Shown here in pieces: positions 1 through 44,945 of a stretch of 44,945 bases of DNA (position 1 is its first letter; each line of letters starts with the position of its first letter). Under the pieces are notes generated by a model. The model was not told where the DNA came from and ran no database searches. It was given only the letters and a program-made list of their open reading frames with translations. Location: UHGV virus genome UHGV-1372148; one strand, 5' to 3'. The DNA comes from a virus. The position numbers and the translations under genes were made by a program.

Positions 1-514
1 CGCCACCGCCTGCTCCGCCCTTGGGTGTAAGGCTCTTTATCCATTCCTCCTCCGTACCCTTGTAGCCGTGCTTGACAGCTATCTCGTACGCACTAAGCCC
101 ACGCAAGCCCTCCAGCACGTTAGCCGTGACGGCCGTAGGGGTGTAGAGGACGGCGTCGCGGACGACGCGACACAGCTCGACGATGATCGTATAGTCGTGG
201 TAGCCGTCCTCGTAGGAGGGGTCGGCGAGGCGTCCCGTCGCTTTTAGCGTGTACACCCCGACGCCGAGGCTCTCGGAGATCTCCTTCGTGACCTCTACAA
301 TAAGCTGCCCCCCCTCGAGCGTGTATGGAGGCTCGGCGGATAGTGCGCCCCCCTCGTTCTCGATCCTTACGGCAAGGCCTTCAAGCGTCGCGGGATCGAG
401 AGGCTCGCCCGTCGGTTGCTTGACGAGAGCGACGGGGATGCGCGTATCTGTTCCCCGCTGTACCTGCTGGAGCGCCCTCTTTTCGCCCGCTCCGCATTTG
501 TCAATAGCTCGCAT
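1..514 (-). CDS. N-terminal part of a tail-fibre-like, possibly receptor-binding, protein. ATG is at 514-512. The ORF has no stop before position 1 and continues in frame at the right end of the window (see 43339..44945).
   Basis: Hand translation of the minus strand from ATG 514 gives 171 codons with no stop (MRAIDKCGAGEKRALQQ...GLSAYEIAVKHGYKGTEEEWIKSLTPKGGAGGGG). It ends in the same 28-aa SAYE.A...GY.G...EW..SL repeat that is found at 43339-44945. The codon phase matches across 1|44945. Confidence 0.55.
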   Translation of the reverse strand, partial: MRAIDKCGAGEKRALQQVQRGTDTRIPVALVKQPTGEPLDPATLEGLAVRIENEGGALSAEPPYTLEGGQLIVEVTKEISESLGVGVYTLKATGRLADPSYEDGYHDYTIIVELCRVVRDAVLYTPTAVTANVLEGLRGLSAYEIAVKHGYKGTEEEWIKSLTPKGGAGGG

Positions 515-603
515 ATATATGTTTTTTTTATTGCCGTGAGGCCGTGTGTCGAGGTGCAGACGCAGGCGGAGGCCTCACGCTCCCCACCCGCCCTGCTGTG
601 GAG

Positions 604-1044
604 TTACTTCAGCTTGGTGAAGTTAACGCCGTCATTCGTCGTCATCGCTTCCTGCTTCGGCATTTCTCCGAGCGGAGGGATCGCGACGTGTACCCACACG
701 CTCTGCCCCTTGCGTTCGAAGATGACCTGCTGGTAGCCTCCGCGCTTGCGGATAAGGTCGAACAGCTCCCGCAGTCGCTCGGGGCTCTTCGCTGGCACGA
801 TGTCAGCGGCCTGTCCAGCGAGGTGTTGGCTGTTCTTTACTCCGCCGACGTCCTTGTTAACTCTCCAGCTTCGGAAGCCCGAGGTCACCTTGATAGGCTC
901 GCCGAACTCCTCACGGATGCCGTCGAGGTAGTCCATCAGTCGCAGGAGGTCTCGCTTCTGAGTGGCGTTAGGGGTGTTGTCTCTGCCGAGGCGCTCGGCC
1001 GTTTGGCTTCGCGTCAGCTCCTCGAGGGTGAAATACTTACTCAT
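604..1044 (-). CDS. Peptidase M15-family (VanY / L-Ala-D-Glu peptidase-like) cell-wall hydrolase; putative endolysin.
   Basis: Motif SGFRS..VN..VGG...SQHLAGQAADI is typical of the Zn-dependent M15 peptidase fold. The gene lies immediately downstream of a 3-TM holin at the end of the tail module. Confidence 0.7.
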   Translation of the reverse strand: MSKYFTLEELTRSQTAERLGRDNTPNATQKRDLLRLMDYLDGIREEFGEPIKVTSGFRSWRVNKDVGGVKNSQHLAGQAADIVPAKSPERLRELFDLIRKRGGYQQVIFERKGQSVWVHVAIPPLGEMPKQEAMTTNDGVNFTKLK

Positions 1045-1047
1045 AGT

Positions 1048-1494
1048 CTATTCTACTTTTGCGAGGTTACGGACTTCGTTAAGTGCCTTTGCCAGCTCCT
1101 TTGCCAGCTCCTGCGTCTGCTTAGCGCTGTTTTTAATCGAGTTCGTGTCGTGCTTGGGGAGGTTCTCCCAAACGCTCCAGCCCTCGGTGGCGACCGCCAC
1201 GATCGCCCCAAAGACGGTCAAGTAGGGGAGCTCGGGGATCGAGATACGCGTCTCGAGGTCGATGATGAACAGTAGGACGTCGAGGAGCGCCAACACAGAG
1301 ATGGCGAGGTAGTAGATGAGGAGCTTACCGAACACGCGTCTAGCGGTGCTCGACTGGATCTTCTGCTTCGTTCGAATAGCCCGCATTATGCCCGTGATCG
1401 TGTCGACGATCACAGCGGCCAATACGATAAGCAGAGCTACAGCCATCATCGCAGCCATCTCCTGTGCCTCTTCGGGGGAAAAGAATTTAAACAT
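1048..1494 (-). CDS. Holin (three predicted TM helices).
   Basis: 148 aa with three hydrophobic segments (AAMMAVALLIVLAAVIV; LLIYYLAISVLALLDVLLFII; YLTVFGAIVAVATEGW) and a charged coiled C-terminal tail. It is 4 bp upstream of the peptidase gene. Confidence 0.65.
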   Translation of the reverse strand: MFKFFSPEEAQEMAAMMAVALLIVLAAVIVDTITGIMRAIRTKQKIQSSTARRVFGKLLIYYLAISVLALLDVLLFIIDLETRISIPELPYLTVFGAIVAVATEGWSVWENLPKHDTNSIKNSAKQTQELAKELAKALNEVRNLAKVE

Positions 1495-1519
1495 AGTCTC
1501 TTAGGTTGGTTGTGGTTAG

Positions 1520-4507
1520 TTAGTAGTTGTCGCCAAAGACGTAGAACGTGAAGTCGATGTTGCTGTACAGTGTGTTATCGTATCTCGTGTAGATCTCGAA
1601 CGAGTTAGCGGTTATTTTGCCAATCTTTGCGTTGTGGCGTCCGTTCCCTTCGTCCATGCATAGCACCGAGTAGCGCGTATGTCCGAGGTCGTGGGTGACG
1701 AGATATGTGCCCGTGCCTGTTCGGCTGATGTTCATTCGGTCGGCACGTGCTCCCCACTTATGCTTGAACCTTACATTACCTTCATCTGCGTATACTCGCC
1801 CGCCGAGGAGTGACCCCGACATATCGACGTCTCCCCTAACTTGCAAGACTGGCTTGTTTAGCTGGTTTGAGATACGCACGAAACGTGGCGTTGCCCCAAA
1901 CATACCGAAGAAGAAGAGCGCACCATCTTCACCGATATAGGTGCGTGAGCGTTCGTGTCGCGGGTCGTTGAATTCAAGTGTGCGGAGGTCTTGTGTGTAT
2001 GTGTTGGGTAGCTTGCCACCAAAGCGCATAGAGCCGATCTGTACGACCTTACCCCCCTCGAGGACTTCCATCTGCCCCCAGTGCCCCGTGCCGTCGTGGT
2101 TGATAGCTACGACGCGCGCCTCGTTGGGCTTGCCGAAGTTCGTAACGCCAGCGGCGAAGGCGGGGAGGTTAGCCACACCCGAGAGGTACGATGCTACTGC
2201 CCCTGCGTTGTTCTTTGCCCCGATAATCGAGCCGAGGATAAGCCCGCCGCTTATCTCCGTGCTACCCTCCCTAATCGCCGTGTGTAGGTAGTCGTTTGGG
2301 TAGTCGTGGAGCGAGCCGTCGGGATAGACGAAGCGGATAGACTTAGAGGCTATCACGCCGCTATTGAGATCGAAGTAGGCCGCGCCGTCGGGCGTCGCTA
2401 TCTTGTCCGTGCGGATCTGCCCAGGCAACACCTCGGAGTACCCGTACATTGCCACGAACGAGCGCTCGCCGTCGTTCTCGGCGTTAAGCAGGCCGAGGAG
2501 TAGCCAGTGCACACCCGCCTCGCTGTCGATACGTCGCGACTGCTCCTCGATGCGGAACGTGCCGCGCGTGCCGTTAGCCTCGACGCGTGCGTATATGTAG
2601 TAGCTCTTGTCGGGCTCGTCGAGGCGTGCCGACGTGATACCTTGGATGTCCCAGTACTTGTACTCGCTCGGCGCGTGGCGGGAGCTTAGCGTCGTGATAC
2701 CCATCGTGAGGTGCTGGATCGTCCCCGAGGGTATGATCAGCTGGCGCGTCTCCTTTTTATAGGTGACGTTGTGCGCGGCCTGCTTCGGGTTGGCGCGGTT
2801 GTCGATGAAGCGGAACTGCAAGCTCTCGTCCCCGACCAGCAGCTGCATCGTCTGCACGACGATAGGCGAGACCTTGCCAGTGAAGCCGTCGAGCGCTGCC
2901 TCGATGAGCGCCTCCGTCGTGCGCTTTGCGTCACTAAATCGGCGCTTAGTGAATTGCAGTGCCTCCTTGTGTCGCTCCTCGACCATTGCCTCGTCATCCT
3001 TAATCTTCTGCAGGCCACCCGAGAAGGACGAGCCGACGACGTCGTTCGATAGCTCGAGGATAGGCGAGTGCGGGGCGTTGACGAAGTCCTTAATACCGAC
3101 GATGCGGAGGAGGACGCCGTCGCGTGCGAAGCTGTCGTCGCGGAAGGAGACGTACCCTCCGAGGACGAGACGCCCGCCGATGTTAGGCCAGTCGCGCTTA
3201 GCCCATAGGCCGTCAAGCTCGCCCGTAAACGTGTACTTCTGATCCTCGTTCTCGTAGAGATGTCGGACGGCCTTCTTGAGAAGCTCCCACTCTGCCCCCG
3301 TCTTCGTCGCGTTATCGGCGATATAGGCCTGTGGGAGTGCGACGTGGAACACGGCGTACTTGTCGCCGCGCTTGGGTTTGAATTGCTCGCTCGGCATCGT
3401 GACGCCGTCGATCTCCTGCGAGATGATCTCGAAGCGCTTACCCGCCTTCTTCGGCGTCGTCTTGTGGTAGTACTTCACCTCGAACTCGCGCCCAGCGAGC
3501 TGCCCCGACTGGAAGATAATCGTCATCGTCTCCCCCGCGATCAGTGCCTTCTCGTAGTCGAGCGCGTCGGGGATGAAGATGTCGGTAATGTCGTAGAAGT
3601 TGCGCGCCGTATTGACAGCTACGACCGTGCTAACCTCCCCTACGCGGCTCGGGTAGATCTCCGTGGCGCTCACGCTATCCTCGGCGCGTGTCTCGAGAGC
3701 CTTGTCGGCTCGGCTGATCGAGAGCCCCTCGGCGTCTACTTTGTAGCGTCGTGCGGTGGCGGAGACGAAGCCCGCCTCACCCTCGAACTTAGAGCCGTCG
3801 TAGGCTATCGTCTGCCCCTTCGGCAGGTGCAGCGTCTTTGCGCCGTACTTCGCGGGGTCGATGTTGCGATCGCCGCCCTGCACGTATAAGATCTCCGTCG
3901 GCGTCTTGCCCGAGGCCGTGCGCCCGACGCCCGTCTTGAGGCCTCGGCCAAAGCCGTAGGCCAGTGCCAGCGGGTTGGACTTGTTGTACTCGACCTTGCG
4001 GAGCGAGATACGCTTGTCGGCGATCTCCCACTCGGTATCGAACTCCTGCGCCATCTTCCCGAGTGCATCCCAGCAGGAGTTATGGTCGTAGCTGACGAGC
4101 TTCTCGGGCGTCTCGATGCAGTCGCCCACCGTCCACCCCGTGTCGCGTGCGTTGAGGTTGGCGATGAGCATCTCGAGGTGTTCGCGAGGCGTCGCCGTTA
4201 GGGGGAACTTGAGACGGCCGTCGACGTTGTTACGGAACTTCCACAGCTTGAGGCGCGACTGCCGAGCCTCGAACGTCACCGTGTACTCGAAGTTGCGCGT
4301 GTGGTGCATCTTGATAGCCTCGGGATTGAGGAGCTCGTAGCGCTCGCCCTGATACTCGCACCACGCACCGCGGGGGAGTTCGACGTGATCGGGGAGAGAG
4401 TACTTGAGCGTCAGCGTGTGGTCGCCCTTGATCGCGCGGTGGCGGAAGCTCGCGTCGTCGACTTCGCCGTCGAGGAGCGTCCTGCCGTTGCTGTCGTAGA
4501 TAATCAT
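1520..4507 (-). CDS. Tail-associated protein (Tal / phage minor structural protein, tail tip).
   Basis: 995-aa ORF immediately downstream of the Dit-like gene and the tape measure. The TMP-Dit-Tal order is canonical for siphoviruses. Confidence 0.6.
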   Translation of the reverse strand: MIIYDSNGRTLLDGEVDDASFRHRAIKGDHTLTLKYSLPDHVELPRGAWCEYQGERYELLNPEAIKMHHTRNFEYTVTFEARQSRLKLWKFRNNVDGRLKFPLTATPREHLEMLIANLNARDTGWTVGDCIETPEKLVSYDHNSCWDALGKMAQEFDTEWEIADKRISLRKVEYNKSNPLALAYGFGRGLKTGVGRTASGKTPTEILYVQGGDRNIDPAKYGAKTLHLPKGQTIAYDGSKFEGEAGFVSATARRYKVDAEGLSISRADKALETRAEDSVSATEIYPSRVGEVSTVVAVNTARNFYDITDIFIPDALDYEKALIAGETMTIIFQSGQLAGREFEVKYYHKTTPKKAGKRFEIISQEIDGVTMPSEQFKPKRGDKYAVFHVALPQAYIADNATKTGAEWELLKKAVRHLYENEDQKYTFTGELDGLWAKRDWPNIGGRLVLGGYVSFRDDSFARDGVLLRIVGIKDFVNAPHSPILELSNDVVGSSFSGGLQKIKDDEAMVEERHKEALQFTKRRFSDAKRTTEALIEAALDGFTGKVSPIVVQTMQLLVGDESLQFRFIDNRANPKQAAHNVTYKKETRQLIIPSGTIQHLTMGITTLSSRHAPSEYKYWDIQGITSARLDEPDKSYYIYARVEANGTRGTFRIEEQSRRIDSEAGVHWLLLGLLNAENDGERSFVAMYGYSEVLPGQIRTDKIATPDGAAYFDLNSGVIASKSIRFVYPDGSLHDYPNDYLHTAIREGSTEISGGLILGSIIGAKNNAGAVASYLSGVANLPAFAAGVTNFGKPNEARVVAINHDGTGHWGQMEVLEGGKVVQIGSMRFGGKLPNTYTQDLRTLEFNDPRHERSRTYIGEDGALFFFGMFGATPRFVRISNQLNKPVLQVRGDVDMSGSLLGGRVYADEGNVRFKHKWGARADRMNISRTGTGTYLVTHDLGHTRYSVLCMDEGNGRHNAKIGKITANSFEIYTRYDNTLYSNIDFTFYVFGDNY

Positions 4508-4532: not shown

Positions 4533-5399
4533 TTAGTTTGGCTCGCGTAGTATTACAAGCGTTATCGTCGTGTCGAGCCACGGGCGGTCGTCGGGATAGA
4601 AGGCCGTCACTTGTGCGCTCTTGTAGTAGGCTTGGTAGTCTCGGTTACCGAGGTCACGCACGCGGATCGTGCGCGCCCCTGGACGTGTGAGGTCGTAGAG
4701 CAGGGCGTCGTAGTTGCGCCACAGCTCGGCGAACGTCTCGGCGCGGAAGTGCAGGCGCATCTTTACTTCCTTGCTCTTTTGTCTCACCGCCCCCCGCGCG
4801 TCGCCTATCACGCCGTGCGCCGTGGCGATGTTGCGCGTCAGTCCGACCTTGACGTCGGCACGTCGTGCGAACTCGGCCAGCGTCCCCTCGGTGACGCGCG
4901 CGCCATAGTCGGTGAGCGTCCAGCGGTCGACGAAGTAGTCGTAACTCTTCGGCACGCCGCTTGTGGGCGCTCTGTATGTGTAGCCTTTGAGAGGGTAGTC
5001 GTCGGCGAACTTGAGCGTCACGAAGCCGAGCGCCTGCGCTATCGTGAGGTTTGGCTCTCCGACGAGGCGAAGCGTGTACTCTCTACCGCCGAGGAACTGA
5101 AAACGAAATACCCGATACACACTCTGACGGAGGAAGGCGAGGAAGGCCTCGATCTTGGCTATCGTCTGCGGTGCGCCAAGCTCCCCCGTCGCACCTATCT
5201 TGATCGTCACCTCGCGGCCGTTGAGCCTCGGCGCGGAGAGGTCGGCGTCGATGCCCTCCTGCTCGTGCCAGTCGTTAGCCTCGACGGGCTTCAGTGGGGG
5301 ATAGGAGAGGAGGTCGTTCAGTCCTGTCTCGAGCGCAAAGACGCCGAAGCGGGCGAACGTATCGACGCCGTCGACGATGATACGAGCCGTGGCCGTCAT
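4533..5399 (-). CDS. Distal tail protein (Dit-like, phage tail family protein).
   Basis: 288 aa, positioned between the TMP and Tal. The N-terminus (TATARIIVDGVD...FGVFALETGLN) is typical of siphovirus Dit proteins. Confidence 0.55.
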   Translation of the reverse strand: MTATARIIVDGVDTFARFGVFALETGLNDLLSYPPLKPVEANDWHEQEGIDADLSAPRLNGREVTIKIGATGELGAPQTIAKIEAFLAFLRQSVYRVFRFQFLGGREYTLRLVGEPNLTIAQALGFVTLKFADDYPLKGYTYRAPTSGVPKSYDYFVDRWTLTDYGARVTEGTLAEFARRADVKVGLTRNIATAHGVIGDARGAVRQKSKEVKMRLHFRAETFAELWRNYDALLYDLTRPGARTIRVRDLGNRDYQAYYKSAQVTAFYPDDRPWLDTTITLVILREPN

Positions 5400-5902: not shown

Positions 5903-8900
5903 TTATTTGATCTTTATGCCCGTTAGCGCTATCTCCTCGAGGGTGTCGCTCGTGCGCTTTGTCGTTGCTTCGATGCGTGCCATACGAGCGCCGAGGCCGT
6001 TAGTCTCGCTCTCGATATTGACGATGCTCTGAAGGATGAGGCCAGTCGTCGCCGTCAGCTGACGCGTATGCTCGGAGATCGTGAACGTGTGGCCTTGTAT
6101 GGCGGTCATACGGCCGTTAAGCTCGTCGATGCTATCCTGCGACGCCGTGGCGATGCCCTTCTGCGACGGCGTGCGCCCCTCGTCGCCGTTAGCGAACTTC
6201 TTTAAGCTGTCGTCGAGCGCGCCGTATACCTGCCCGAAGCTCTCGCCAATACGCCCTATCTCGGTGGCCATTTCGGCGGCCGAGCTATTCACGGCGTCGA
6301 TGCCTTTAAACGCGCCCTTCTCATTGAACCACTTCGACTTGTACTTATTGAATAGCTCCCCGAGCTGAGGCTCGAGGTACTTCGTCACGAGCATACGACG
6401 TACTATATCGCCGACGATCTCGTTCGTCTTCTTGTGCCATCCCTCCATAGCATCCTCGCCAGCCTTAGCGGCGTCGAAGAAGGCGTTACCGAGTTCGCTC
6501 GCGAGGCTCTCCGCCGAGCTCCCGATGATCTTCTCGAGAGGCTCGTTCAGTGCCTCGGCCATTTGGTTGCCGATCTCGGCCATCTTCTGCTTGTACTCCG
6601 CAACCTTCCCCTTATCGGTCTTCTTCTTCCCCTGCTCCGCCTCGATCTGCTCCTTAATGAGGAGCTGCTGTTTAGCGAGGTTCTCGAGCTTCGCGCGGCC
6701 GTCGTCCAGTCGTGCCTCGCCGAGGGCTTTGTTAGCCGTGTAGCTCATCTTCGCGTAGGCGTCGGCGATCTTCTCTACGGTCTTAGCGAAGATCTCCCCG
6801 CGGTTGCGAGCGACGGCGAACATGCGCTCCCACGTGCTACCCGTTGCGATGCTCTCCTTACGGAGTGCCATCACCTCGTCGCGTGTCGATGCGTAGAGGT
6901 CGCGCACCTTCTCGAGCGCGTCGCCGTACTCGGCGCTTAGACGCGTCGCACCCGTATTGGATAGCTCCCACTGGAGCTGGTCGATCTCGGCCTGCAGGCG
7001 CTCGATCTGCTTCTGCTTCTTCCCGTCGTTGTTAAAGAGGTTAGCTATCGCCGTGGCGACCTGCAGAGCGGCCGATATGACGGCCAGCACGACGGAGGCC
7101 TTCTCGACCATCGAGACGGCCGTAGCGCCTGCCGTGGCCGCTGCCGTAGCGCCAGCCGAGGCACTCTGCACCGTGTCCGCTACGCCCTTTGCGACGCTCT
7201 TACCGACGTCGCCGACGGCTTGTATCGCCGACGAGGTAGCGTCGATGACCTCGCCCGTGAAGTCTACGACCTGCGCCAGCCCATCGGCTACGTCCGTCGA
7301 GAAGACCGACGCGAGGAGCTTTGCCTTACCCCCGACGTCTTTAAGGACGCCGCCGACGTTGTGCAAGCTCGTAGTGAGATTAGCGTAGGAGGCCGTTATG
7401 CCATTGCGCGCCTGCATAGCACGACGCACCGCCTTGTCGCTCTCGTCCTGCGCCTTCGCCTGCACCTTCTGCGCCGCGGCGAGTTTCTCGTTAGCCTCGG
7501 CGATAGCGGCGAGGAACTCGGGCGTGGTGTGATCCTCGTGTGCGTCCTGTACGGCCGTCTTCTCACGCAGCGCCTCATTGTACGCGCGCTGTGCCTCGGT
7601 CAGTCGCTCCTGCGCGGCGACCATTGCACCGATAGCGTCGGAGTATTCCACCTTGGCGCGTGAGATGTCGCGGATAGCCTTATGTAGAGAGGCAAAGGGA
7701 TTGCGCCCTGCGATCTCCGCCTCCATATTCTTAATGGCCTCCTGATAGTCCTTGATCTCCTGCGTGGAGAGGACGCCCTTGTTGGCCTCGAAGTACTGGC
7801 GCACTCGTCCGAGTGTGTACTCGAGGACGGGCAGTGCCTGCTTCGTCAGATCGCCGAAGACGCTCTCCCAGTCGATAGCCTTGCGGAAGCGCTCGCTCGA
7901 GATCTTCGACAGCTCCTCGTCCATCTTCCGCACGGCCTCATCTTGGAACTCGACGGGCATCGTGGCGAGGCGCTTCGACCAGTCGCGCAGTAGCTTATCC
8001 TCCTTGTCTTGTATCGAGCCGAACTCGTCGATGAGTGCGTCGTGGTACTTCTCTTGTGCGGCCTTGATAGCGCGCTCGCCGTTGGCCGTCACCGCCTGCC
8101 ACATACTATCGTAGAGGCGTGCGATCTCGGGGCTATCCTTCGCGACGACTTCCTGCCAGTCCTTCGTCGTGCGCTTCCCCTCGGCGCTGTTTGCCCAGCC
8201 TACCTCGGTAGCGCCCTTCTTGCTCATGTAGATAGCCTTCGCCTCGGCCTTGCGCGCCTCGGCTATCGCTTCGTAGCGCTCGTTAAGGGCTTCGAGCTGC
8301 TTCTTCGTCCCTTGTCGGATCTCGTTAAGCTCACGCGTCAGCCCCGCCTCCTGCGCGTCGATAGCGAGCTTCGTTAGCTCGTCCTGCGCCTCCTTTATGT
8401 ACTTCTTTGCGTCCTTCGCGTAGGCCTCGCGCGCCAGTCTTTCCTCGAGTGCTGCCTTCGCAGGGTCGAACGTCCTCCCGCTCGTCTTGCTCTTCGTCGT
8501 GGTAGGGTCGACGTGTCCGCCGATATTAGCCGTCTGCTTCGTCTGCTCGGCGGCGGCGAAGGCCTTGCGGTAGGTGGCCTCGAGTTCGTCGGCCTCCTTT
8601 TGTAGCTTCTCGATAGCGCGCTTCTTCGTCAGCTCGTCGCGAGCGTCGGACGTGTACCAGCTACCATACTCGGCGGCCTTCTTGTTCTTAGCGTCTTGGA
8701 GCGCGATATAGGCCTCGGTGTATTTGGATAGTACCGCCTGCGCTTCCGCCTCGCGGAGCATCGTATTCGCATAGGCCTCTCCCTTCTCTTGCAGTACTCG
8801 CTTCCACTCGGCGGCGCTCTTGTAGTAGCCGAGAGCCTCGCCGTACTTACTGTTTAGCTCCTTGACGATCTGCTTCTCCTTATCCTTCGAGCCGCTATAA

Positions 8901-10234
8901 CGCTCGAGCTTCGCTTGGTAGTTGTCGATCTCGACCCGCGCCTTAATGTAGGCCTCGTTACCCTTCGACGTGATCTCGGCCATCTGCTTAGCCTTCTCCT
9001 CGGCCTCGGACGTGGCGGAGGCGAGGCTCGAGAGCCAGCCGACAAGCTCGCCGACGGCGACGATGAGCGCGCCGATACCCGTAGAGATAAGCGCGGCCTT
9101 GAGGCCTCGTAGCGCTATCGAGGCGGCGCGCGTCGCTACGGCCTGCGCCGTCGTGGCGGCCGTGGCGATGACGGTAGAGCCTGCCAGCGTGCGTTGTGCC
9201 GCGACACCCGTAGTAGCCGCCGTGTTGTTAGTCGCCTTGCTCGCCGTGTTGGCCGTCGTGGCGGCGGTGTTGGCTGTCGTGGCCACCGTCGACGCCGTCG
9301 TACTGACGGCCTCTTCGGACTGCTTCACGGCACTCTCGCCGAGGAGCTTATTCCATATCTTTTTTAGCGAGTTGAGGGTAACGAGTGTGAAGGCGCTATC
9401 CTTGTTAAGGGTCTGCTGGATCTGCTGTAAGCCCATCGTGATAGCCATCACGCTCTGTACGCGGAGCATTATCTGCTGGAGCTTCTCATTCTCCGCGCCG
9501 AACAGCCCCATAGCGCCCTGCGCCACGGCTGCCGCACCCGACAAGCCCGACAGCCCCGAGATAACGCCCTGCATGCCTCGCTGGTCGTGTGCGAGGATGT
9601 TCGCCTGCGCCGAGGCGTCAGACCACGCGTCGGTAAGGCGCGCGGCCTCGGCCTGCAACGCCTGATACTGCGCCGTGCCTCGTTGCCCTGCGGCCTCCAT
9701 CTCTACGAGTGCCGTCTTAATCTCACGCAGACGCTGGCGGAGCGAGACGTGCTTCTCTCCCGCCTGCTTTGCCTGCTCTCCCGTCGAGCGCAGGGCGTTC
9801 TCCTCCTTGTGCAGCTGGTCGGCCGTCGCCTCGATCTCGGCGAGGAGCTTCTTACGCGTTGCGATGAGCTGCTCGACGACCGCCTTCTGCTCGCGCAGTG
9901 CAGCCGCGCCCTTCGTGTCGCCTCGGCTCGTGGCCTTGCGTTGCTCCTCGGTGAGGCGTCGATACTCGGCCTCCAGCTCGGCGAGGCCTTGCTTATTAGA
10001 CGCGTACGTGCGGTCAAGGTCGGCGAACGCCTGCCCCAGCGTCTGCACCTGCTCCGAGAGCTGTGTGATGCCCTCCGAGCCCTTGCCGACGACAGCGCCG
10101 ACGCCACCCGAGGCGGCCTCTGCGACCGCCTTGTCTATATCGGTGAGTATCTGCTTCGCCTCCTCGGCGTCGCGGCGTAGTTCGCTCGTGTCTATTCCTA
10201 TGCCGTAGTAGCTCTTCCCGTCCTCGCTGTTCAT
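5903..10234 (-). CDS. Tail tape measure protein.
   Basis: 1443 aa, strongly alpha-helical and coiled-coil in composition (A/E/K/Q-rich) with Gly/Ala/Thr-rich hydrophobic central segments. It lies directly downstream of the frameshifted chaperone pair. Confidence 0.85.
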   Translation of the reverse strand: MNSEDGKSYYGIGIDTSELRRDAEEAKQILTDIDKAVAEAASGGVGAVVGKGSEGITQLSEQVQTLGQAFADLDRTYASNKQGLAELEAEYRRLTEEQRKATSRGDTKGAAALREQKAVVEQLIATRKKLLAEIEATADQLHKEENALRSTGEQAKQAGEKHVSLRQRLREIKTALVEMEAAGQRGTAQYQALQAEAARLTDAWSDASAQANILAHDQRGMQGVISGLSGLSGAAAVAQGAMGLFGAENEKLQQIMLRVQSVMAITMGLQQIQQTLNKDSAFTLVTLNSLKKIWNKLLGESAVKQSEEAVSTTASTVATTANTAATTANTASKATNNTAATTGVAAQRTLAGSTVIATAATTAQAVATRAASIALRGLKAALISTGIGALIVAVGELVGWLSSLASATSEAEEKAKQMAEITSKGNEAYIKARVEIDNYQAKLERYSGSKDKEKQIVKELNSKYGEALGYYKSAAEWKRVLQEKGEAYANTMLREAEAQAVLSKYTEAYIALQDAKNKKAAEYGSWYTSDARDELTKKRAIEKLQKEADELEATYRKAFAAAEQTKQTANIGGHVDPTTTKSKTSGRTFDPAKAALEERLAREAYAKDAKKYIKEAQDELTKLAIDAQEAGLTRELNEIRQGTKKQLEALNERYEAIAEARKAEAKAIYMSKKGATEVGWANSAEGKRTTKDWQEVVAKDSPEIARLYDSMWQAVTANGERAIKAAQEKYHDALIDEFGSIQDKEDKLLRDWSKRLATMPVEFQDEAVRKMDEELSKISSERFRKAIDWESVFGDLTKQALPVLEYTLGRVRQYFEANKGVLSTQEIKDYQEAIKNMEAEIAGRNPFASLHKAIRDISRAKVEYSDAIGAMVAAQERLTEAQRAYNEALREKTAVQDAHEDHTTPEFLAAIAEANEKLAAAQKVQAKAQDESDKAVRRAMQARNGITASYANLTTSLHNVGGVLKDVGGKAKLLASVFSTDVADGLAQVVDFTGEVIDATSSAIQAVGDVGKSVAKGVADTVQSASAGATAAATAGATAVSMVEKASVVLAVISAALQVATAIANLFNNDGKKQKQIERLQAEIDQLQWELSNTGATRLSAEYGDALEKVRDLYASTRDEVMALRKESIATGSTWERMFAVARNRGEIFAKTVEKIADAYAKMSYTANKALGEARLDDGRAKLENLAKQQLLIKEQIEAEQGKKKTDKGKVAEYKQKMAEIGNQMAEALNEPLEKIIGSSAESLASELGNAFFDAAKAGEDAMEGWHKKTNEIVGDIVRRMLVTKYLEPQLGELFNKYKSKWFNEKGAFKGIDAVNSSAAEMATEIGRIGESFGQVYGALDDSLKKFANGDEGRTPSQKGIATASQDSIDELNGRMTAIQGHTFTISEHTRQLTATTGLILQSIVNIESETNGLGARMARIEATTKRTSDTLEEIALTGIKIK

Positions 10235-11826: not shown

Positions 11827-11864
11827 AGTTATGGTTAGTTAATTGGTTGGTAATGGTTGTATCT

Positions 11865-12804: not shown

Positions 12805-12810
12805 AGCCCG

Positions 12811-21892: not shown

Positions 21893-22123
21893 TTAGTCCT
21901 TGCGTTGCGTGAAGTGCGGGCAGGCCTCCCTCGAGAGGAGATCGAGGAAGCGCCCGCCGTGCTTGTTGTACTTACATCGCCCGAGGGTTGGGCGTCCGTC
22001 GACGGCCGAGGGGTAGGCGAGATCGTGGATGAGTGCGCAACCTCGGCACTGCCCGCGTGAGCCTTCCCCGTCGCCCGTGACGGCCTTTCGCCTCGTGGCT
22101 GGGGTGTTGTTACGCTTCGCCAC
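21893..22123 (-). CDS. Small Cys-rich (zinc-ribbon-like) protein.
   Basis: 76 aa with CRGC...C...C. It overlaps the portal 3' end by 14 bp. Confidence 0.35.
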   Translation of the reverse strand: MAKRNNTPATRRKAVTGDGEGSRGQCRGCALIHDLAYPSAVDGRPTLGRCKYNKHGGRFLDLLSREACPHFTQRKD

Positions 22124-33105: not shown

Positions 33106-33120
33106 ATCGCGGTGGTGATA

Positions 33121-34053: not shown

Positions 34054-34061
34054 TGCTTGTC

Positions 34062-34937: not shown

Positions 34938-34961
34938 TGTTTGTAGTTGCTTGGTTAGAGG

Positions 34962-35873
34962 TTAGAGGAGTGTATCATCGCCCTGCCCGTCGGTGGGGAG
35001 GAGTTCGCCCGTTTCGGCGTCTACGACCTCCGCTGGTGCTGCGGCCGCCGCCTTTGCCTTTGCCATCGCCTCGGAGGCCTTCGCCTGCGGAGAGCCTGCG
35101 GGGACTTCCTCGGCCACGACGTCCTCGATCCGTGCGTCGTTGTCGGCGTAGCGGGGTGCGCCGTCGGTGCTATTAAACACGGCTTGGTCGGCGGTGATGG
35201 CCTGCTGCATCTCGACCGAGAGCGGAGCGAAGCGTGAGAGGAGGAGTTTCAGCACGGTCTTGCGAGCCATCGCGTCGAAGTTCTTCGACCACTGCGACGA
35301 CGACCAGCCCTTGTCCTTGTCAGCTTTGTAGGTCTGCGAGTACTCGTAGGCGTGCGCCTCGACCTCGTCCTTCGTCATGTAGAGCGTCTTCTCGAAGCCG
35401 TTAGTAAGGCGGATAAAGGCGGCGTATCCCACCGTTGGGAGCTTCTCACGTGCGGGGAGTGCCTCGAAGCGCGTCTCTCCAGTCAGTAGGTCGAAGTGCT
35501 TTACCTCTCCCTCCTTTACGTCGGTGACGTTGATCGTGCGGAACTGCCCGCTTCGGATAGCAAGCTGGATAAAGCCCTTGTACCCGATCTGGAACTGCGC
35601 CTCCGTGATGCCCGCCTTTCGGTTGGCGTAGGGGATGACGTAGGCGAAGCCGAGATTAGGATCGAGGGGGAGGTCTAAGGCCGTCGCCTTGATACCTGCG
35701 TAGATGACGCTAAGGGGCTGGCAGGCCTGCAGGTTGGCGTTGTTAGCCACGAGGGAGGAGATGTTGTTGACGAATGAGTTCTTTTTCGTCGCCAGTACGC
35801 TCTCGAGGTAGCTCTGTGTGCGGGGGTTGCTTAACGTCTCGTTGAAGAGTTTAAGCGTGCTTGTCTGTGCCAT
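34962..35873 (-). CDS. RecT-family single-strand annealing recombinase.
   Basis: Start is MAQTSTLKLF at 35873. The region of about 300 aa is followed by an Ala/Lys-rich acidic tail. The ORF extension up to 36008 overlaps the next gene and is rejected. Confidence 0.7.
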   Translation of the reverse strand: MAQTSTLKLFNETLSNPRTQSYLESVLATKKNSFVNNISSLVANNANLQACQPLSVIYAGIKATALDLPLDPNLGFAYVIPYANRKAGITEAQFQIGYKGFIQLAIRSGQFRTINVTDVKEGEVKHFDLLTGETRFEALPAREKLPTVGYAAFIRLTNGFEKTLYMTKDEVEAHAYEYSQTYKADKDKGWSSSQWSKNFDAMARKTVLKLLLSRFAPLSVEMQQAITADQAVFNSTDGAPRYADNDARIEDVVAEEVPAGSPQAKASEAMAKAKAAAAAPAEVVDAETGELLPTDGQGDDTLL

Positions 35874-36804: not shown

Positions 36805-37653
36805 ATGTCTAATAATCAAAGGCTTGCGCTGATTTACGAGGCGCTGAAAAAATCTCAGAAAGTGCGCAATCAGTCGCACTTTGCGAGCCTCGTCGGGGAG
36901 AAAAGCAGGGGCAATCTGTCGAATTACCTCTCAGGATCTAAGCCTCTCGGCGATGACCTTGTAAAACGTTATGTTGTATCTCTCTCGGATGCTATGCCCG
37001 AGTTGTCTCTCGACTGGTTAAGGACTGGCGAGGGTGATATGGTACGCGCGTACCCCGCGCTCGCACCCGTAGAGGACAACCCAGGGGCGTCGCTCCCCGA
37101 TATAGGACGACGCACCGACGTATGGGTGGGGAAGGACGACCGCGTCTATTGGACGGAAGCCATACAAGTAGGAGACGAGGAGGACTACCAGCGTGCGACG
37201 CAGGAGGGGGTGAAGCTCATCCCCGAGTTCGCCGAGGCCTTCCGCGGTGGCACGACGGGCGAGGCCGAGGAGCTGCGCACCGTAGACACCTATTGGGGAC
37301 TGCCCGACGTAGACGGAAATATGGTAGTACCTATCCGCGGAGACTCTATGGCACCTCGCTATCCTGCTGGCTGTCGCGTCGTCCTCAAGCCCTATCCCTT
37401 CAATCCTCGCCGCCCTTTGCTCCTGCCCTTTGGTGAGGTCTTTGCCGTGGCCGTGAGGCAGGAGGACGGCTATCCTCCGACGCACTACCTCAAGAAGCTA
37501 CACCGCCACCCCGACAAAGCGAAGGAGAACTACTACTATATCGCTCGGAGCTTTAACAAGGAGTACGAGGACTTCGAGATACCTATCAATGATATATGCT
37601 TCCTCTCGGCGGTCGTCGCTAAGATAGACCTCGAGCATACGTTCACGTTCTAA
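36805..37653 (+). CDS. CI-like repressor (N-terminal HTH plus C-terminal S24 LexA-type peptidase).
   Basis: PIRGDSMAPRYPAGCRVVLK carries the S24 Ser nucleophile motif. N-terminal HTH ends with LDWLRTGEG. Confidence 0.75.
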   Translation: MSNNQRLALIYEALKKSQKVRNQSHFASLVGEKSRGNLSNYLSGSKPLGDDLVKRYVVSLSDAMPELSLDWLRTGEGDMVRAYPALAPVEDNPGASLPDIGRRTDVWVGKDDRVYWTEAIQVGDEEDYQRATQEGVKLIPEFAEAFRGGTTGEAEELRTVDTYWGLPDVDGNMVVPIRGDSMAPRYPAGCRVVLKPYPFNPRRPLLLPFGEVFAVAVRQEDGYPPTHYLKKLHRHPDKAKENYYYIARSFNKEYEDFEIPINDICFLSAVVAKIDLEHTFTF

Positions 37654-39950: not shown

Positions 39951-40059
39951 CTATTTGGGTGCGCGTTTGTTGCTCGCGTTGCGTGGTGTCTGTGGCAACG
40001 CCTCGTAGGTCAGTTAGTTAAGTGCGTCGTGTAACATTCTGCATCGGAAAGTAGCGGGG

Positions 40060-40242: not shown

Positions 40243-41388
40243 ATGGCTACCTCTAAAGACCCCGTGCGCCTGCGTCGGCGCACCACGCCCTCGGGGCGCA
40301 TATCACTCTACCTCGACATATACCACGAGGGATCGCGACGATACGAGTATCTAAAGCTCTACCTCGTCGCCGAGCGCACACGCGCCGATAAGGAAGCTAA
40401 CCGCGAGACACTCCAGCTCGCCGAGGCTATCCGAGCGAAGCGACTACTCGAACTACGTAACGGCCTCTACGGCTTCGCCACGGCCAAGCCTAAGGCGCGC
40501 TTCTTCGACTACTACTGCTCGCTCGTCGAGCAACGCCACGGCGACGAGAGCGAGGGGAACTGGAACAACTGGCGCTCCGCCCTTCACCACCTCCGCCATT
40601 ATGAACGACGGGAGAGTATCAAGCTCTCCGAGATCACGCCCGACTGGGTGCTGGGCTTTCGCGACTTCCTCCGCCACGACGCCCGCGCGTGGTCGGGGAA
40701 TTTTCGCAAACGCATAGACGACAAGCCCCTCGCGGTCAATAGTCAAGTATCGTATTTCAATAAGCTACGCGCCTGCCTCCGACAAGCCCACGAGGAGGGG
40801 CTGATCCCGAGCAACCCCGCCAAGGCCGTAGACGGAATAAAGGAAGAGGAGGCGACGCGTATGTATCTCACGATCGACGAGGTTCGCCTGCTGGCACAGA
40901 CTGAGTGCGCCTATCCTGGCATCAAGGCCGCGTTCCTCTTCTCCTGCCTCACGGGCTTGCGTCGCTCCGACATAACGCGCCTAACGTGGTCGGACGTCCA
41001 CACACACGGAGATTACACGCGTATCATCTTTCGTCAAAAGAAGACGCGCGGGCAGGAGTACCTCGATATTACCCCCGAGGCCGTCGAGCTTATGGGGGAG
41101 CGAGGACGCCCCGACGCGCTCGTTTTCCCCGACGTCCACACGGCTAACTGCACTAACAACGCTATACGCCTATGGGTGGCACGTGCGGGCATCGCAAAGG
41201 ACATTACCTTCCACTGCGCACGCCATACGTTCGCTACTATGATGCTCGACCTCGGGACGGACATATACACCGTGAGTAAGCTCCTCGGTCATCGCTTCCT
41301 CTCGACGACGCAGATATATGCGAAGGTGCTGGATAAGAGCAAGCAGGAGGCTGTGTCGTCGATACCCTCTATCCTCGGCGGTGAGTGA
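40243..41388 (+). CDS. Tyrosine integrase (site-specific recombinase, phage-integrase family).
   Basis: C-terminal catalytic region with R...HCARHTFATMM...LGHRFLSTTQIYAKV (R-H-R-Y pattern). Confidence 0.8.
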   Translation: MATSKDPVRLRRRTTPSGRISLYLDIYHEGSRRYEYLKLYLVAERTRADKEANRETLQLAEAIRAKRLLELRNGLYGFATAKPKARFFDYYCSLVEQRHGDESEGNWNNWRSALHHLRHYERRESIKLSEITPDWVLGFRDFLRHDARAWSGNFRKRIDDKPLAVNSQVSYFNKLRACLRQAHEEGLIPSNPAKAVDGIKEEEATRMYLTIDEVRLLAQTECAYPGIKAAFLFSCLTGLRRSDITRLTWSDVHTHGDYTRIIFRQKKTRGQEYLDITPEAVELMGERGRPDALVFPDVHTANCTNNAIRLWVARAGIAKDITFHCARHTFATMMLDLGTDIYTVSKLLGHRFLSTTQIYAKVLDKSKQEAVSSIPSILGGE

Positions 41389-42230: not shown

Positions 42231-42244
42231 CAAAGATAAAGATG

Positions 42245-42282
42245 CGCCCCGACTGCAGTAGGTAGTCGGGGCGTTCTCTTCA
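42245..42282 (+). terminator. Rho-independent-type terminator.
   Basis: 10-bp perfect GC-rich stem followed by TTCTCTTC. Confidence 0.5.
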
Positions 42283-42504
42283 TAAAAGAAGGGCGAGGAA
42301 GTCACACCTCCCCGCCCTTGTTAGACGTTGCGAGATTAAGCGAATAATCACGTACATCTGTGAGCATAAGCTCGTTTCAATTCAGCACCCCGAAGGGTGG
42401 ACACGTAGAAGCGTGCACTCATCTACACTGCAAATGTAGGGAAAGTTTTGATACCACCAAACACCCGCAGACCTTTTTCGTGAGGTCACGAAAATGCTCT
42501 CACG

Positions 42505-42969: not shown

Positions 42970-42974
42970 CGTAA

Positions 42975-43128
42975 ATCTTTGTTAAGTCTTTGATAGGTAG
43001 CCACAGCTTGCTACCTTTGTAGGAGAGAGGCGCTGGGGCTGGAGATTGGCTTTCAGATTTCGTACTCATAAATCCTATCCAGCCCCGCCTCTCTATGCGC
43101 CCTGCCGACTGGCGGGGCGCTTTCGTTT
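42975..43128 (+). ncRNA. Candidate small-RNA transcription unit: a Bacteroidetes promoter, then a long imperfect hairpin, then an intrinsic terminator.
   Basis: TTTG at 42989-42992 and TAccTTTG at 43012-43019, 19 nt apart. Stem GAGAGGCGCTGGGGCTGGA (43023-43044) pairs with TCCAGCCCCGCCTCTC (43078-43095). Terminator GCGCCCTGCC-N4-GGCGGGGCGC followed by TTTCGTTT. No ORF. Confidence 0.35.
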
Positions 43129-43336
43129 AGGGCTGAGCCTCGCCCTCTTCGGGCTTGGACTTAGCCTCGTCCTCCGCCTGCCACTTCACCTCTAAGGCGA
43201 GGGCTTCCTCTTCGGGCGTGAGTACCCAAAGGTCGGCCGCCTGCTGGTCGGGGCAGTAGAGGTAGTAGCCGATTAGTCGGTGGCTTCGGTTCACATAGGC
43301 GAAGCCGTCGGGAGCGATTAGTTCGATCATATCCAT
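43127..43336 (-). CDS. Small acidic protein immediately downstream of the fibre gene (possible fibre assembly chaperone).
   Basis: 69 aa; its ATG is 3 bp after the fibre stop. Confidence 0.35.
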   Translation of the reverse strand: MDMIELIAPDGFAYVNRSHRLIGYYLYCPDQQAADLWVLTPEEEALALEVKWQAEDEAKSKPEEGEAQP

Positions 43337-43338
43337 AG

Positions 43339-44945
43339 CTATCTAAAATTAAGTGTGAAGCCCTTGGCGGATGCCTTTTGGCTGTACTCTCGAGCCACTG
43401 CCGTGTGCGCCGTCTGCCAAGCTCTCGCAAGCGTGATAGACTTCCCCGTCACCTGCTGGAGGTTATCGACGAGGAATTTCACGCTCTCAACGGAGAGGTT
43501 GGCGCTATGCTGGAGATTGAGGTCTGCCTTGAGCCCCTTGATGCGCACCTCCTCCAAAGCCTCGCAGAGGTATAACATGTTGGTCGTTGCGGCGAGCTTT
43601 GAGAAGTCCAGCGTGCCGTTGATGCGTCGCAGGCGAGTGCAGCCGTTGAAGGCGTTATCTACCTTGGTCAGCGCATCGCCCGTGCCGAGCGTCACCTCCG
43701 TGAGCGACGAGCACTGCTGTGCTATCTGCGCTATATCGGTCACGTTGGGGGTCTCCCCGATGGTCAGCGTCTTAAGCGACGCACAGAGCGTGGCGAGGAG
43801 CGATAGCGTCGTGCATCGTGGCATTGCGCCTATCGTAATCGTCTCGAGTGCTGCGCACCCGTAGAAAGCACCTGATGCGAGAGCGACGGCGGGTAGGTCG
43901 GGGAGTGTTGCCGTAGTCATAGATGCGCACCCACTGCACATTTGGCTGATGTTCGAGATTTGCCCAGCGTTGCGGATCTCGGGGAGAACCTTAAGGGCTG
44001 ACGCGTTTGTAAACATACTATAGAAGTCTGCGGGATTGAACTCAGAGTAAACCTCGAGCGTCGGGAGGTAATCCGACTTAAAGCCGCTAAGCTGACGCAA
44101 CGCATACACGGGGAACACGTACACCTTAATCTCTTGGATCTTGCCCGCTAGGTCAGTTAGCCCGTCGGTGTCATCCACCGATACGCCCTTGGCACGCATG
44201 GCCGTGATGATTTCCCTGCGGTGGCCGTCTGCCTCCAGCAGTTGCGCTCCTGCGGTCGTGTTCTCGGGTGCGCTCTCGTCTGTGCCGTTGTTGATCTTGT
44301 AGAGTAGCTCTATCTCTGTTTTGTTCATACCTTCTTCGTTGCTTCCGTTGTTGCTTCTTGCGCTTGCCCACTCCTTCTCGGAGAGCTTGGGATTGTCTGT
44401 CGTGGTCTCAAGGTAGGATTGGTAGGCATTCTTCCCGTCCTTCCCCTTTAGGCTGGCGAGCCAATCAGCCTGCGAGCCTTGGTAGCCTCCTGCCTTAGCA
44501 AGCTCGTACGCACTCTTACCTGCATCGCCCTTGAGGCTCTCCAGCCACTCCTCACGTGAGCCTTGATACCCGCCAGCCTTGGCTACCTCGTAGGCATCCT
44601 TGCCGTCCGAGCCACGAAGGGACGCAAGCCACGCCTGCTCGTCACCTACGTAGCCATTGCGCACCGCCACCTTGTAGGCGCTTTCTCCGTCTGCTCCCTT
44701 GAGCGAGGCTATCCACTCCGTTAGGCTACCCTCGTAGCCCTCCGACTTAGCGAGTTCGTAGGCGGATAGCCCCGTCGCACCGATGAGGGTCTTTAACCAC
44801 TCCTCTCGGCTACCCGTGTAGCCCGCTTTCTTGGCGACTTCGTATGCATCTGCACCATCCTTGCCGACAAGGCTCTTTAGCCACTCTTGGAGCGTGCCTT
44901 GGTAGCCCTCTTGCACCGCCAGCTCGTAGGCGGACTTGCCGTTAC
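43339..44945 (-). CDS. C-terminal part of the wrap-around tail-fibre-like protein: eight 28-aa tandem repeats, then a BspA-type leucine-rich-repeat region.
   Basis: Repeats (K/R)G.DGKSAYE.AK..GY.GS..EWL.SL occur eight times. The C-terminal part has LRR-like segments (FNGCTRLRRINGTLDFSKL...EALEEVRIKGL). The ORF is open to the right edge of the window. Confidence 0.55.
   Translation of the reverse strand, partial: NGKSAYELAVQEGYQGTLQEWLKSLVGKDGADAYEVAKKAGYTGSREEWLKTLIGATGLSAYELAKSEGYEGSLTEWIASLKGADGESAYKVAVRNGYVGDEQAWLASLRGSDGKDAYEVAKAGGYQGSREEWLESLKGDAGKSAYELAKAGGYQGSQADWLASLKGKDGKNAYQSYLETTTDNPKLSEKEWASARSNNGSNEEGMNKTEIELLYKINNGTDESAPENTTAGAQLLEADGHRREIITAMRAKGVSVDDTDGLTDLAGKIQEIKVYVFPVYALRQLSGFKSDYLPTLEVYSEFNPADFYSMFTNASALKVLPEIRNAGQISNISQMCSGCASMTTATLPDLPAVALASGAFYGCAALETITIGAMPRCTTLSLLATLCASLKTLTIGETPNVTDIAQIAQQCSSLTEVTLGTGDALTKVDNAFNGCTRLRRINGTLDFSKLAATTNMLYLCEALEEVRIKGLKADLNLQHSANLSVESVKFLVDNLQQVTGKSITLARAWQTAHTAVAREYSQKASAKGFTLNFR

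What the first reader, a model, noticed from the sequence alone, without database searches (positions are those of the whole stretch)
1..44945. The window looks like a complete circular phage genome: one repeat-rich fibre gene runs in frame across the ends.
Three observations support this. (1) A minus-strand ORF starting at ATG 514 has no stop down to position 1; it is 171 codons with one nucleotide left over. (2) The minus-strand ORF at the right edge (stop at 43339) is open up to 44945 with two nucleotides left over. Together these form the codon GGT (position 1, then 44945-44944), so the reading frame is continuous across the ends. (3) Both sides carry the same unusual 28-aa repeat (SAYE.A...GY.G...EW..SL), and the joined sequence reads ...EEWIKSLTPKGGAGGGG|GNGKSAYELAVQEGYQG... 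The joined protein would be about 706 aa. The genome also contains every phage module, with the integrase and a candidate attP internal, and no host genes flanking. It is therefore most likely an excised, circularised or circularly permuted phage assembly rather than an integrated prophage with host junctions.
Basis: seen in the sequence. Interest (0 to 1): 0.75.

Follow-up and report, generated by a model that had tools for sequence, protein, structure and literature searches.

The report
Complete circular temperate phage genome
The window is the whole genome of a temperate tailed phage from the human mouth, assembled as a closed circle and cut open by chance inside its tail-fibre-like gene; this is real but ordinary.

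Summary
The minus-strand ORF from ATG 514 joins 44945->43339 in frame through a GGT codon, giving one 2121-nt gene (706 aa plus stop).

- The same 706-aa protein is already on record as one uninterrupted gene (P0001 = DAV29142.1).
- ENA contig k119_208211 is 45064 nt. Its first and last 119 nt are identical (119 = the k in its name), and 45064-119 = 44945.
- The four fetched pieces of that contig, about 36.4 kb of its 45 kb, match the circularised window base for base. The contig's own ends lie elsewhere, at window 30043-30161.
- Contigs from a second sequencing run bridge both cut points exactly.
- Four related IMG/VR contigs carry the junction internally.

The genome has packaging, head, siphovirus-type tail, lysis, replication/recombination and lysogeny modules. 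It carries an intact attP: the 18-nt core at 40037-40054 equals the last five codons plus stop of host mnmE. Relatives sit integrated at that site in oral Porphyromonas-like genomes.

The split gene encodes an N-terminal beta-sandwich, seven 28-aa two-helix repeats and a BspA-type leucine-rich-repeat tip. It is most likely a modular fibre or receptor-binding protein. The public label "tail sheath" is not supported.

Verdict: an ordinary linearisation artefact of a circular assembly, of low interest.

The parts
1..514 (-). 5' part of the split gene: start codon at 514-512, 171 codons plus the first base of codon 172. Encodes the N-terminal beta-sandwich domain and repeat unit 1.
   Evidence: AlphaFold2 models, with pLDDT 75-94 over aa 17-134.
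43339..44945 (-). 3' part of the split gene: last two bases of codon 172, 534 further codons and the stop. Encodes repeat units 2-7 and a degenerate eighth unit, a helical linker, and the C-terminal BspA-type leucine-rich-repeat domain (aa ~450-706).
   Evidence: Pfam LRR_5 scores 30 bits against a 27.7-bit cut-off. PDB 4gt6 matches at E 1.9e-11. The LRR region has pLDDT above 90.
604..1044 (-). Endolysin (Peptidase_M15_3).
   Evidence: phrog_894 at E 5.5e-32; precomputed Pfam hit.
1048..1494 (-). Holin.
   Evidence: phrog_199; Phage_holin_4_1.
1520..4507 (-). Tail tip / Tal-like protein (995 aa).
   Evidence: Large unnamed PHROG families at E 1e-166, and a weak Prophage_tail match.
4533..5399 (-). 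Distal tail protein.
   Evidence: phrog_6305, a tail protein family, at E 8.6e-60.
5903..10234 (-). Tape measure protein (1443 aa).
   Evidence: phrog_9959 at E 3.4e-81.
13488..14573 (-). Major head protein.
   Evidence: phrog_29 at E 1.3e-27.
22110..23525 (-). Portal protein (SPP1 Gp6-like).
   Evidence: PF05133 at E 1.4e-26; phrog_64.
23580..25166 (-). Terminase large subunit.
   Evidence: phrog_2 at E 7.9e-29.
29734..31620 (-). Primase-helicase (Toprim + DnaB_C). The ends of the original circular contig k119_208211 fall inside this gene, at 30043-30161.
33121..35873 (-). Recombination module: YqaJ/RecE-like exonuclease, DUF1351 protein and RecT.
36805..37653 (+). CI-like repressor, part of the lysogeny module.
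   Evidence: phrog_4 at E 3.4e-16.
40037..40054 (+). attP core TTCTGCATCGGAAAGTAG, equal to the last five codons plus stop of host mnmE (FCIGK*).
   Evidence: Homology to the integrated relative L026 stops here. Three-way attB/attL/attP comparison.
40243..41388 (+). Tyrosine integrase with an arm-binding domain.
   Evidence: PF00589, PF13102 and PF17293.

Best explanation
The window is the complete 44,945-bp genome of an uncultivated temperate tailed phage with a siphovirus-type tail module. It comes from the human oral microbiome, and its host is most likely a non-gingivalis Porphyromonas.

It was assembled as a closed circle. The k-mer overlap was trimmed and the circle was opened at an arbitrary point that happens to lie in the Gly-rich linker after the first repeat of one gene. 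Nothing biological happens at the window ends.

The genome is in the attP (non-integrated) configuration. Its tyrosine integrase recombines an 18-nt core just upstream of int with the identical 3' end of the host gene mnmE, so integration leaves mnmE intact.

The split gene encodes a 706-aa protein with three parts: a conserved N-terminal beta-sandwich (inferred virion anchor), a variable-length shaft of 28-aa two-helix repeats, and a BspA-type leucine-rich-repeat tip (inferred receptor binder). It is therefore most likely a modular tail fibre or receptor-binding protein, made late together with the tail and lysis genes.

Shown: frame continuity, circular closure, module content, the attP core and its host target in relatives, and the domain architecture.

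Inferred: the exact host species, virion location and trimeric state of the protein, receptor binding by the LRR, and the physical form of the DNA.
For: Closure and junction:
- The joined ORF is 2121 nt = 706 aa.
- The identical 706-aa protein, P0001 / DAV29142.1, is called as an internal gene on two ENA contigs.
- k119_208211 is 45064 nt, its first 119 nt equal its last 119 nt, and 45064-119 = 44945. Loci L019, L021, L022 and L025 from it match the circularised window exactly, and L019 spans 44945|1.
- Logan contigs from run ERR589672 bridge both cut points at 100% identity: L024 = window 41819-44945 plus 1-55, and L034 = window 27734-33620.
- A 48-nt junction string occurs inside 4 IMG/VR contigs that are 80-94% identical and collinear across the junction.
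- The repeat units are only 50-69% identical at DNA level, so they cannot have caused a repeat-driven misjoin.

Genome content and integration:
- All modules are present.
- Integrated relatives L026, L027 and L018 abut mnmE. Their homology to the window ends at 40037. The core is shared by attB (L031), attL and attP.
- The MnmE of that host clusters at 90% identity or more with Porphyromonas sp. KLE 1280. One source contig is from a human oral metagenome.

Fibre reading:
- The gene lies 89 nt downstream of the endolysin on the same strand.
- It has no N-terminal hydrophobic signal (sequence).
- The N-terminal domain plus first repeat is conserved, while the distal part is swapped in relative L017.
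- Repeat number varies from 1 to 8, and some homologues carry collagen-like repeats instead.
- The repeat matches PHROG tail-fibre families.
- LRR-bearing phage proteins are common in the BFVD viral structure library.
Against: - No read-level data were available. Uniform coverage, the absence of defined termini and the physical topology are untested.
- The window and k119_208211 are probably the same assembly. Independent support therefore rests on the ERR589672 contigs and on relatives.
- The host is inferred from relatives whose fibre is about 77% identical, not from this exact phage. Host flank GC (52-53%) is lower than phage GC (58%).
- For the fibre reading, the gene lies after the lysis cassette, a position often used by lysogenic-conversion genes.
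- The N-terminal fold gives only generic Ig-like matches, with TM about 0.4.
- The repeat region is modelled with low confidence, pLDDT about 50.
Confidence: 0.93

Rival explanations
1. The window is an integrated prophage cut out of a bacterial chromosome, and host DNA lies just beyond its ends.
For: Close relatives do exist as integrated prophages (L026, L027 and L018). Several IMG/VR relatives begin at or next to the integrase.
Against: The two window ends are directly contiguous in exact-match contigs. The integration site of relatives, at window 40037-40054, is internal and has phage DNA on both sides. No host gene is present.
Confidence: 0.01
2. The circle is an assembly artefact, in which the 84-nt tandem repeats of the fibre gene caused a false overlap of contig ends.
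For: The window ends lie within a tandem-repeat region, a classic place for assembly breaks. One Logan contig (L024) does stop 55 nt past the junction.
Against: The original contig's ends are not in the repeats but in the primase-helicase gene. The repeat units share only 50-69% DNA identity. The junction sequence and the 35-aa linker are conserved in most multi-repeat homologues and in 4 IMG/VR contigs. The exact protein is called on two different assemblies.
Confidence: 0.02
3. The split gene is not a virion fibre. It is a lysogenic-conversion (moron) adhesin, a BspA-like surface protein that the prophage gives to its host.
For: The gene lies between the lysis cassette and the integrase end of the prophage, a typical moron position. 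BspA-type LRR proteins are classically bacterial surface proteins: PDB 4gt6 is named 'cell surface protein' and 4fs7 is from Bacteroides.
Against: There is no signal peptide or lipobox at the N terminus, and the C terminus is helical rather than a secretion-type beta-sandwich. The gene is on the same strand as the late operon and tightly follows it. The conserved N-terminal module with swapped distal domains and the collagen or repeat shafts of variable length are typical of phage fibres. The repeat hits PHROG tail families.
Confidence: 0.2
4. The sequenced molecules were linear, terminally redundant and circularly permuted virion DNA from headful packaging, or replication concatemers, rather than a covalently closed episome. 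The circle is only a map.
For: The portal is SPP1-like. A second assembly, k127_17811 at 45390 nt, is 445 nt longer than the genome and appears to run past its own start (by arithmetic only).
Against: Nothing here discriminates between these forms. The terminase has no informative solved relative. This is compatible with the best explanation rather than opposed to it.
Confidence: 0.5

Closest known systems
GenBank third-party annotation 'MAG TPA: ... [Caudoviricetes sp.]' record carrying protein DAV29142.1, and ENA contig ERZ27263234:k119_208211
   Same: The 706-aa protein is identical. The fetched 36 kb of the ENA contig is identical to the circularised window, and the genome length is the same after removing the 119-nt overlap.
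   Different: The linearisation point and strand differ. The public protein name 'tail sheath protein' is not supported here. No biological description of this phage was found, and it is absent from the GenBank phage collection searched.
Prophages of Porphyromonas gingivalis (Matrishin et al. 2023, PMC10367356)
   Same: They are temperate, predicted siphoviruses of an oral Porphyromonas, found both integrated and as separate contigs.
   Different: Those phages insert by transposition or into tRNA-Ser or tRNA-Pro, whereas this lineage targets the 3' end of mnmE. The paper does not mention mnmE, BspA or leucine-rich repeats. The host GC and probable host species also differ.
BspA-type leucine-rich-repeat proteins (Pfam PF13306 LRR_5; PDB 4gt6, 4fs7)
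   Same: The C-terminal 250 aa match the family above Pfam's cut-off, match the solved structures, and are modelled as an LRR solenoid with high confidence.
   Different: Here the LRR is fused to a phage-type N-terminal module and a repeat shaft, lacks export signals, and is encoded in a phage late operon.
Modular siphophage fibres / receptor-binding proteins with collagen-like or repeat shafts
   Same: The N-terminal module is conserved, shaft length varies (1-8 repeats, or collagen-like repeats instead) and the distal domains are exchangeable. The repeat is shared with PHROG tail-fibre families.
   Different: The gene sits after the lysis cassette instead of directly after the tail-tip gene. 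No solved homologue of the N-terminal anchor was found.

Membership tests
Complete, circularly closed phage genome assembly | The ends of the linear representation are contiguous in the underlying assembly or in independent assemblies. | tested here: met
   L019 spans 44945|1 exactly. k119_208211 has a 119-nt terminal duplication, and its length minus 119 is 44945. L024 and L034 bridge both cut points.
Complete, circularly closed phage genome assembly | A full set of phage modules (packaging, head, tail, lysis, replication, lysogeny) and no host genes. | tested here: met
   Pfam and PHROG annotation of about 55 ORFs.
Complete, circularly closed phage genome assembly | Read-level support: even coverage and reads or read pairs spanning the closure. 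| not testable with these tools
   No reads were available.
Integrated prophage with host junctions | attL and attR junctions with host DNA at the element's ends. | tested here: not met
   The att core at 40037-40054 has phage DNA on both sides. Host mnmE sequence appears only in relatives L026, L027 and L018.
Tyrosine-integrase site-specific integration module | An integrase with a catalytic domain, plus a core sequence shared by attP and attB. | tested here: met
   PF00589, PF13102 and PF17293. An 18-nt core is shared with the mnmE 3' end in the empty site L031 (16 of 18 identical) and with attL of L026 (18 of 18). attR was not retrieved.
BspA-type leucine-rich repeat (PF13306 LRR_5) | A profile match above the curated cut-off and an LRR solenoid fold. 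| tested here: met
   30.0 bits against a 27.7-bit cut-off. PDB 4gt6 at E 1.9e-11. pLDDT above 90 with alternating short strands over aa 450-650.
Phage tail fibre / receptor-binding protein | A conserved N-terminal virion-attachment module with exchangeable distal domains among related phages. | tested here: met
   The L017 gene in the same slot has the same N-terminal domain plus one repeat, then an unrelated C terminus. Shaft length is variable or collagen-like in homologues.
Phage tail fibre / receptor-binding protein | Physical presence in the virion and binding to a host receptor. | not testable with these tools
   This needs virion proteomics and adsorption assays.
Tail sheath protein (the name given in nr) | Homology to sheath domains over most of the protein, in a contractile-tail gene set. 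| tested here: not met
   The phrog_15433 ('tail sheath') match covers only profile positions 47-141 of 798, through the 28-aa repeats. There is no Pfam sheath domain. The tail module consists of a tape measure, a distal tail protein and a tail-tip protein, and no sheath homologue was detected among the annotated ORFs.

The most novel reading that the evidence does not exclude
The 28-aa two-helix 'SAYE..GY.G...EW..SL' unit has no Pfam family. It may be a length-tunable fibre-shaft module that is interchangeable with collagen triple helix. In that reading, oral Porphyromonas phages use it to present a BspA-type leucine-rich-repeat tip as their receptor-binding domain, an adhesin fold otherwise known from bacterial surface proteins of periodontal organisms. 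If so, LRR tips swapped between phage and host could link phage host range to bacterial adhesion.
Probability: 0.35. Interest if true: 0.35.

Novelty: new member of a known kind. Interest (0 to 1): 0.15.

Why it matters
The main value is for curation. The window should be treated as a circular genome, the two end ORFs should be merged into one 706-aa gene, and the public name 'tail sheath protein' should be replaced.

Biologically, it adds a complete temperate phage of commensal oral Porphyromonas. Its attachment site is defined, at the 3' end of mnmE; this differs from the tRNA and transposition sites described for P. gingivalis phages. It also carries a modular LRR-tipped fibre.

None of this is surprising to a phage specialist.

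Tried and rejected
- **GenBank phage collection:** a megablast of window 1-24000 gave no match.
- **Species-representative genomes:** searching with the integrase found only relatives at 50% identity or less in Bacteroidota and other MAGs.
- **tRNA and Rfam scans:** nothing found, so the att site is not a tRNA.
- **Pfam and NCBIfam on the repeat region:** no family above noise.
- **PDB sequence searches:** the terminase and the tail-tip protein gave nothing informative, so the packaging mode remains unresolved.
- **Fold search of the N-terminal domain:** only generic Ig-like, fimbrial or adhesin beta-sandwiches at TM about 0.4, and no specific phage anchor domain.
- **Start of contig k127_17811:** a look-up of the 154-aa protein, meant to retrieve it and show its 445-nt wrap-around, failed because that contig carries a slightly different allele. 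The wrap-around therefore rests on arithmetic only.
- **Repeat-driven false circularisation:** considered and rejected.
- **attL/attR-like duplication:** the 140-nt direct repeat flanking int was considered for this role and rejected. It is a duplicated promoter/leader, and the real core lies elsewhere.
Full report
**Observation**

- On the minus strand, 514->1 gives 171 codons plus one base.
- On the minus strand, 44945->43339 gives two bases, 534 codons and a stop.
- The split codon is GGT (Gly172). The joined ORF is 2121 nt = 706 aa.
- The 28-aa unit (consensus G..G.SAYE.A...GY.G...EW..SL.) occurs once before the cut (aa 136-163) and six times after it, followed by a degenerate eighth copy.

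**Is the junction real?**

- A 48-nt string spanning 44945|1 occurs inside four IMG/VR contigs from different samples. BLAST shows these 80-94% identical relatives are collinear with the window straight across the junction.
- The exact 706-aa protein exists as one called gene, P0001. In nr it is DAV29142.1, 'MAG TPA: tail sheath protein [Caudoviricetes sp.]'.
- P0001 lies on two ENA contigs: ERZ27263234:k119_208211 (45064 nt) and a human oral metagenome contig, ERR589672 k127_17811 (45390 nt).
- I fetched four pieces of k119_208211, covering 36.4 kb. All match the circularised window base for base, and one of them (L019) spans the window junction.
- That contig's first 119 nt equal its last 119 nt and no other length matches. 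45064-119 = 44945. This is the signature of a circular contig from a k=119 assembly.
- The contig's own ends map to window 30043-30161, inside the primase-helicase gene.
- That second cut point is bridged by a different assembly: Logan contig L034 of run ERR589672 equals window 27734-33620 exactly.
- Logan contig L024 of the same run equals window 41819-44945 followed by 1-55.
- The repeat units share only 50-69% DNA identity. The long Gly-rich linker at the junction is conserved across most of the homologues that carry multiple repeats. A repeat-induced misjoin is therefore excluded.

**What the genome is**

GC content is 58%. There are no tRNA genes and no Rfam hits. Real genes stand out by GC3 of about 0.75-0.83. 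PHROG and Pfam annotation gives the following layout.

- **Minus strand, late genes:**
  - Small-terminase candidate, large terminase (23580-25166), SPP1-type portal (22110-23525) and a minor head protein.
  - After an inserted plus-strand block: scaffold-like genes, major head protein (13488-14573), head-tail and tail genes, and tape measure (5903-10234).
  - Distal tail protein (4533-5399), a 995-aa tail-tip protein (1520-4507), holin, endolysin (604-1044), and then the split gene.
- **Minus strand, early genes:** HTH/excisionase-like protein, RecT, DUF1351, YqaJ exonuclease, replication initiator, primase-helicase, SSB, DUF3310, a ParB-like protein and a TAGT-like glycosyltransferase.
- **Plus strand, lysogeny region:** CI-like repressor (36805-37653), a lipoprotein, further HTH proteins and a tyrosine integrase (40243-41388).
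- No sheath gene was detected, so the tail module is siphovirus-type. No host genes are present.

**Integration site and host**

- A relative whose fibre is 77% identical is integrated in a 125.7-kb scaffold (L026). There the integrase is followed directly by host genes: mnmE, uridine kinase, a beta-lactamase-family gene, a GH3 gene and others.
- Homology between that prophage and the window ends at window 40037, which is 18 nt inside the 3' end of mnmE.
- An empty site is available in L031, with the same host gene order and no integrase.
- Aligning attB (L031), attL (L026) and the window gives the following:
  - The core is TTCTGCATCGGAAAGTAG, at window 40037-40054, encoding FCIGK plus stop.
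  - To the left of the core, attL follows the host and the window follows the phage.
  - To the right of the core, attL and the window agree.
- The window therefore carries attP. Integration regenerates the end of mnmE.
- IMG/VR relative L018 shows the same attL, L016 starts exactly at the core, and L023 (NODE_139_length_44950) shows the attP form.
- The host MnmE falls in a 90%-identity cluster with Porphyromonas sp. KLE 1280 and a Porphyromonadaceae MAG.
- Together with the oral-metagenome source, this points to a commensal oral Porphyromonas. This is inferred from relatives. Host flanks have 52-53% GC.
- Described P. gingivalis prophages use tRNA-Ser, tRNA-Pro or transposition (PMC10367356), so the mnmE site is a different choice.

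**The split gene**

- Pfam finds only LRR_5 (BspA type), at aa 507-622. PDB sequence search finds BspA-like surface proteins 4gt6 and 4fs7.
- AlphaFold2 with 57 homologues gives four regions:
  - a confident beta-sandwich at aa 17-134;
  - seven two-helix hairpins for the repeats, at low confidence;
  - a helical linker;
  - a very confident LRR solenoid from about aa 450 to the end.
- The N-terminal domain modelled alone matches only generic Ig-like, fimbrial or adhesin folds.
- The 1653 homologues keep the N-terminal domain and the LRR but vary the shaft. They have 1-8 repeat units, or collagen-like repeats (PF01391) in place of them.
- In relative L017, the gene in the same slot keeps the N-terminal domain and one repeat, then continues with an unrelated C terminus.
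- PHROGs match the repeat to families named tail fiber, tail protein, tail assembly and 'tail sheath'. The 'tail sheath' match covers only about 95 of 798 profile positions, which explains the misleading nr name.
- The protein has no signal peptide. Its gene follows the endolysin by 89 nt on the same strand.
- I therefore read it as a modular fibre or receptor-binding protein, at about 0.7. The main alternative is a lysogenic-conversion adhesin, at about 0.2.

**Verdict**

The window is a whole, circularly closed temperate phage genome in the attP state, opened by chance within one gene.
- This is a linearisation effect of a circular assembly and an ordinary finding.
- The sequence is already public but undescribed.
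- The useful by-products are the merged gene model, the corrected annotation, the attP/attB definition at mnmE and the likely host.
- What remains open is the physical form of the DNA (episome, concatemer or permuted virion DNA) and direct proof that the protein is on the virion.

Noticed in passing
window 39277-39417 and 41717-41856: A direct repeat of about 140 nt, 92% identical, flanks the block made of the 165-aa gene, attP and the integrase. It holds a Bacteroidota-type promoter (TTTG ... TATCTTTG), a small GGGG/CCCC hairpin, the leader and the first four codons (METK) of two genes, 39399-39896 and 41838-42230. The two proteins are otherwise unrelated (BLASTP E 0.055). In the prophage, these two cassettes would sit at opposite ends of the element. 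They look like duplicated moron expression cassettes. Relatives L014, L016, L017 and L023 carry copies too.
   Followed up: partly
window 27673-27693 and 32923-32943: The palindromic motif AGTGATT-N7-AATCACT occurs exactly twice, against 0.05 expected by chance. Both copies are in intergenic spots of the early minus-strand operon, upstream of the ParB-like gene and upstream of the replication initiator. It is a possible operator or regulator-binding site.
   Followed up: partly
window 16171-20694: A block of ten plus-strand genes with lower GC (0.48-0.56) interrupts the minus-strand head-morphogenesis operon, between the minor head protein and the scaffold/capsid genes. It includes a MazG-like pyrophosphatase, a DEDD (RNase_T) exonuclease, a small lipoprotein (lipobox at 16925-17179) and membrane proteins.
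   Followed up: no
window 25795-28749: A TAGT-like glycosyltransferase (PF20691 / phrog_842) lies in a local GC trough (0.49). Next to it are a ParB-like protein and a DUF3310 protein whose PHROG matches are named nucleotide kinase. Together they hint at a phage DNA-modification module.
   Followed up: no
window 37667-38200: A 177-aa predicted lipoprotein (MKRITLSLLTLALLGAPAVTSCKKD...) sits between the CI-like repressor and further HTH genes in the lysogeny operon. It has no family match and is a candidate superinfection-exclusion or surface-modifying protein.
   Followed up: no
L020 positions 10515-13120 (ENA ERR589672 k127_17811): This second assembly is 100% identical to window 10514-1. It then drops to 98.97% identity over window 44945-42425, and its last 86 nt do not match the window. 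The contig is 445 nt longer than the genome. This suggests two co-existing strain variants and a contig that runs past its own start.
   Followed up: partly
L002 (IMGVR_UViG_3300007976_000008, 62746 nt): A related IMG/VR contig is about 17 kb longer than this genome and carries the junction sequence about 600 nt from one end. It probably includes host flank or a larger relative. It was not examined further.
   Followed up: no
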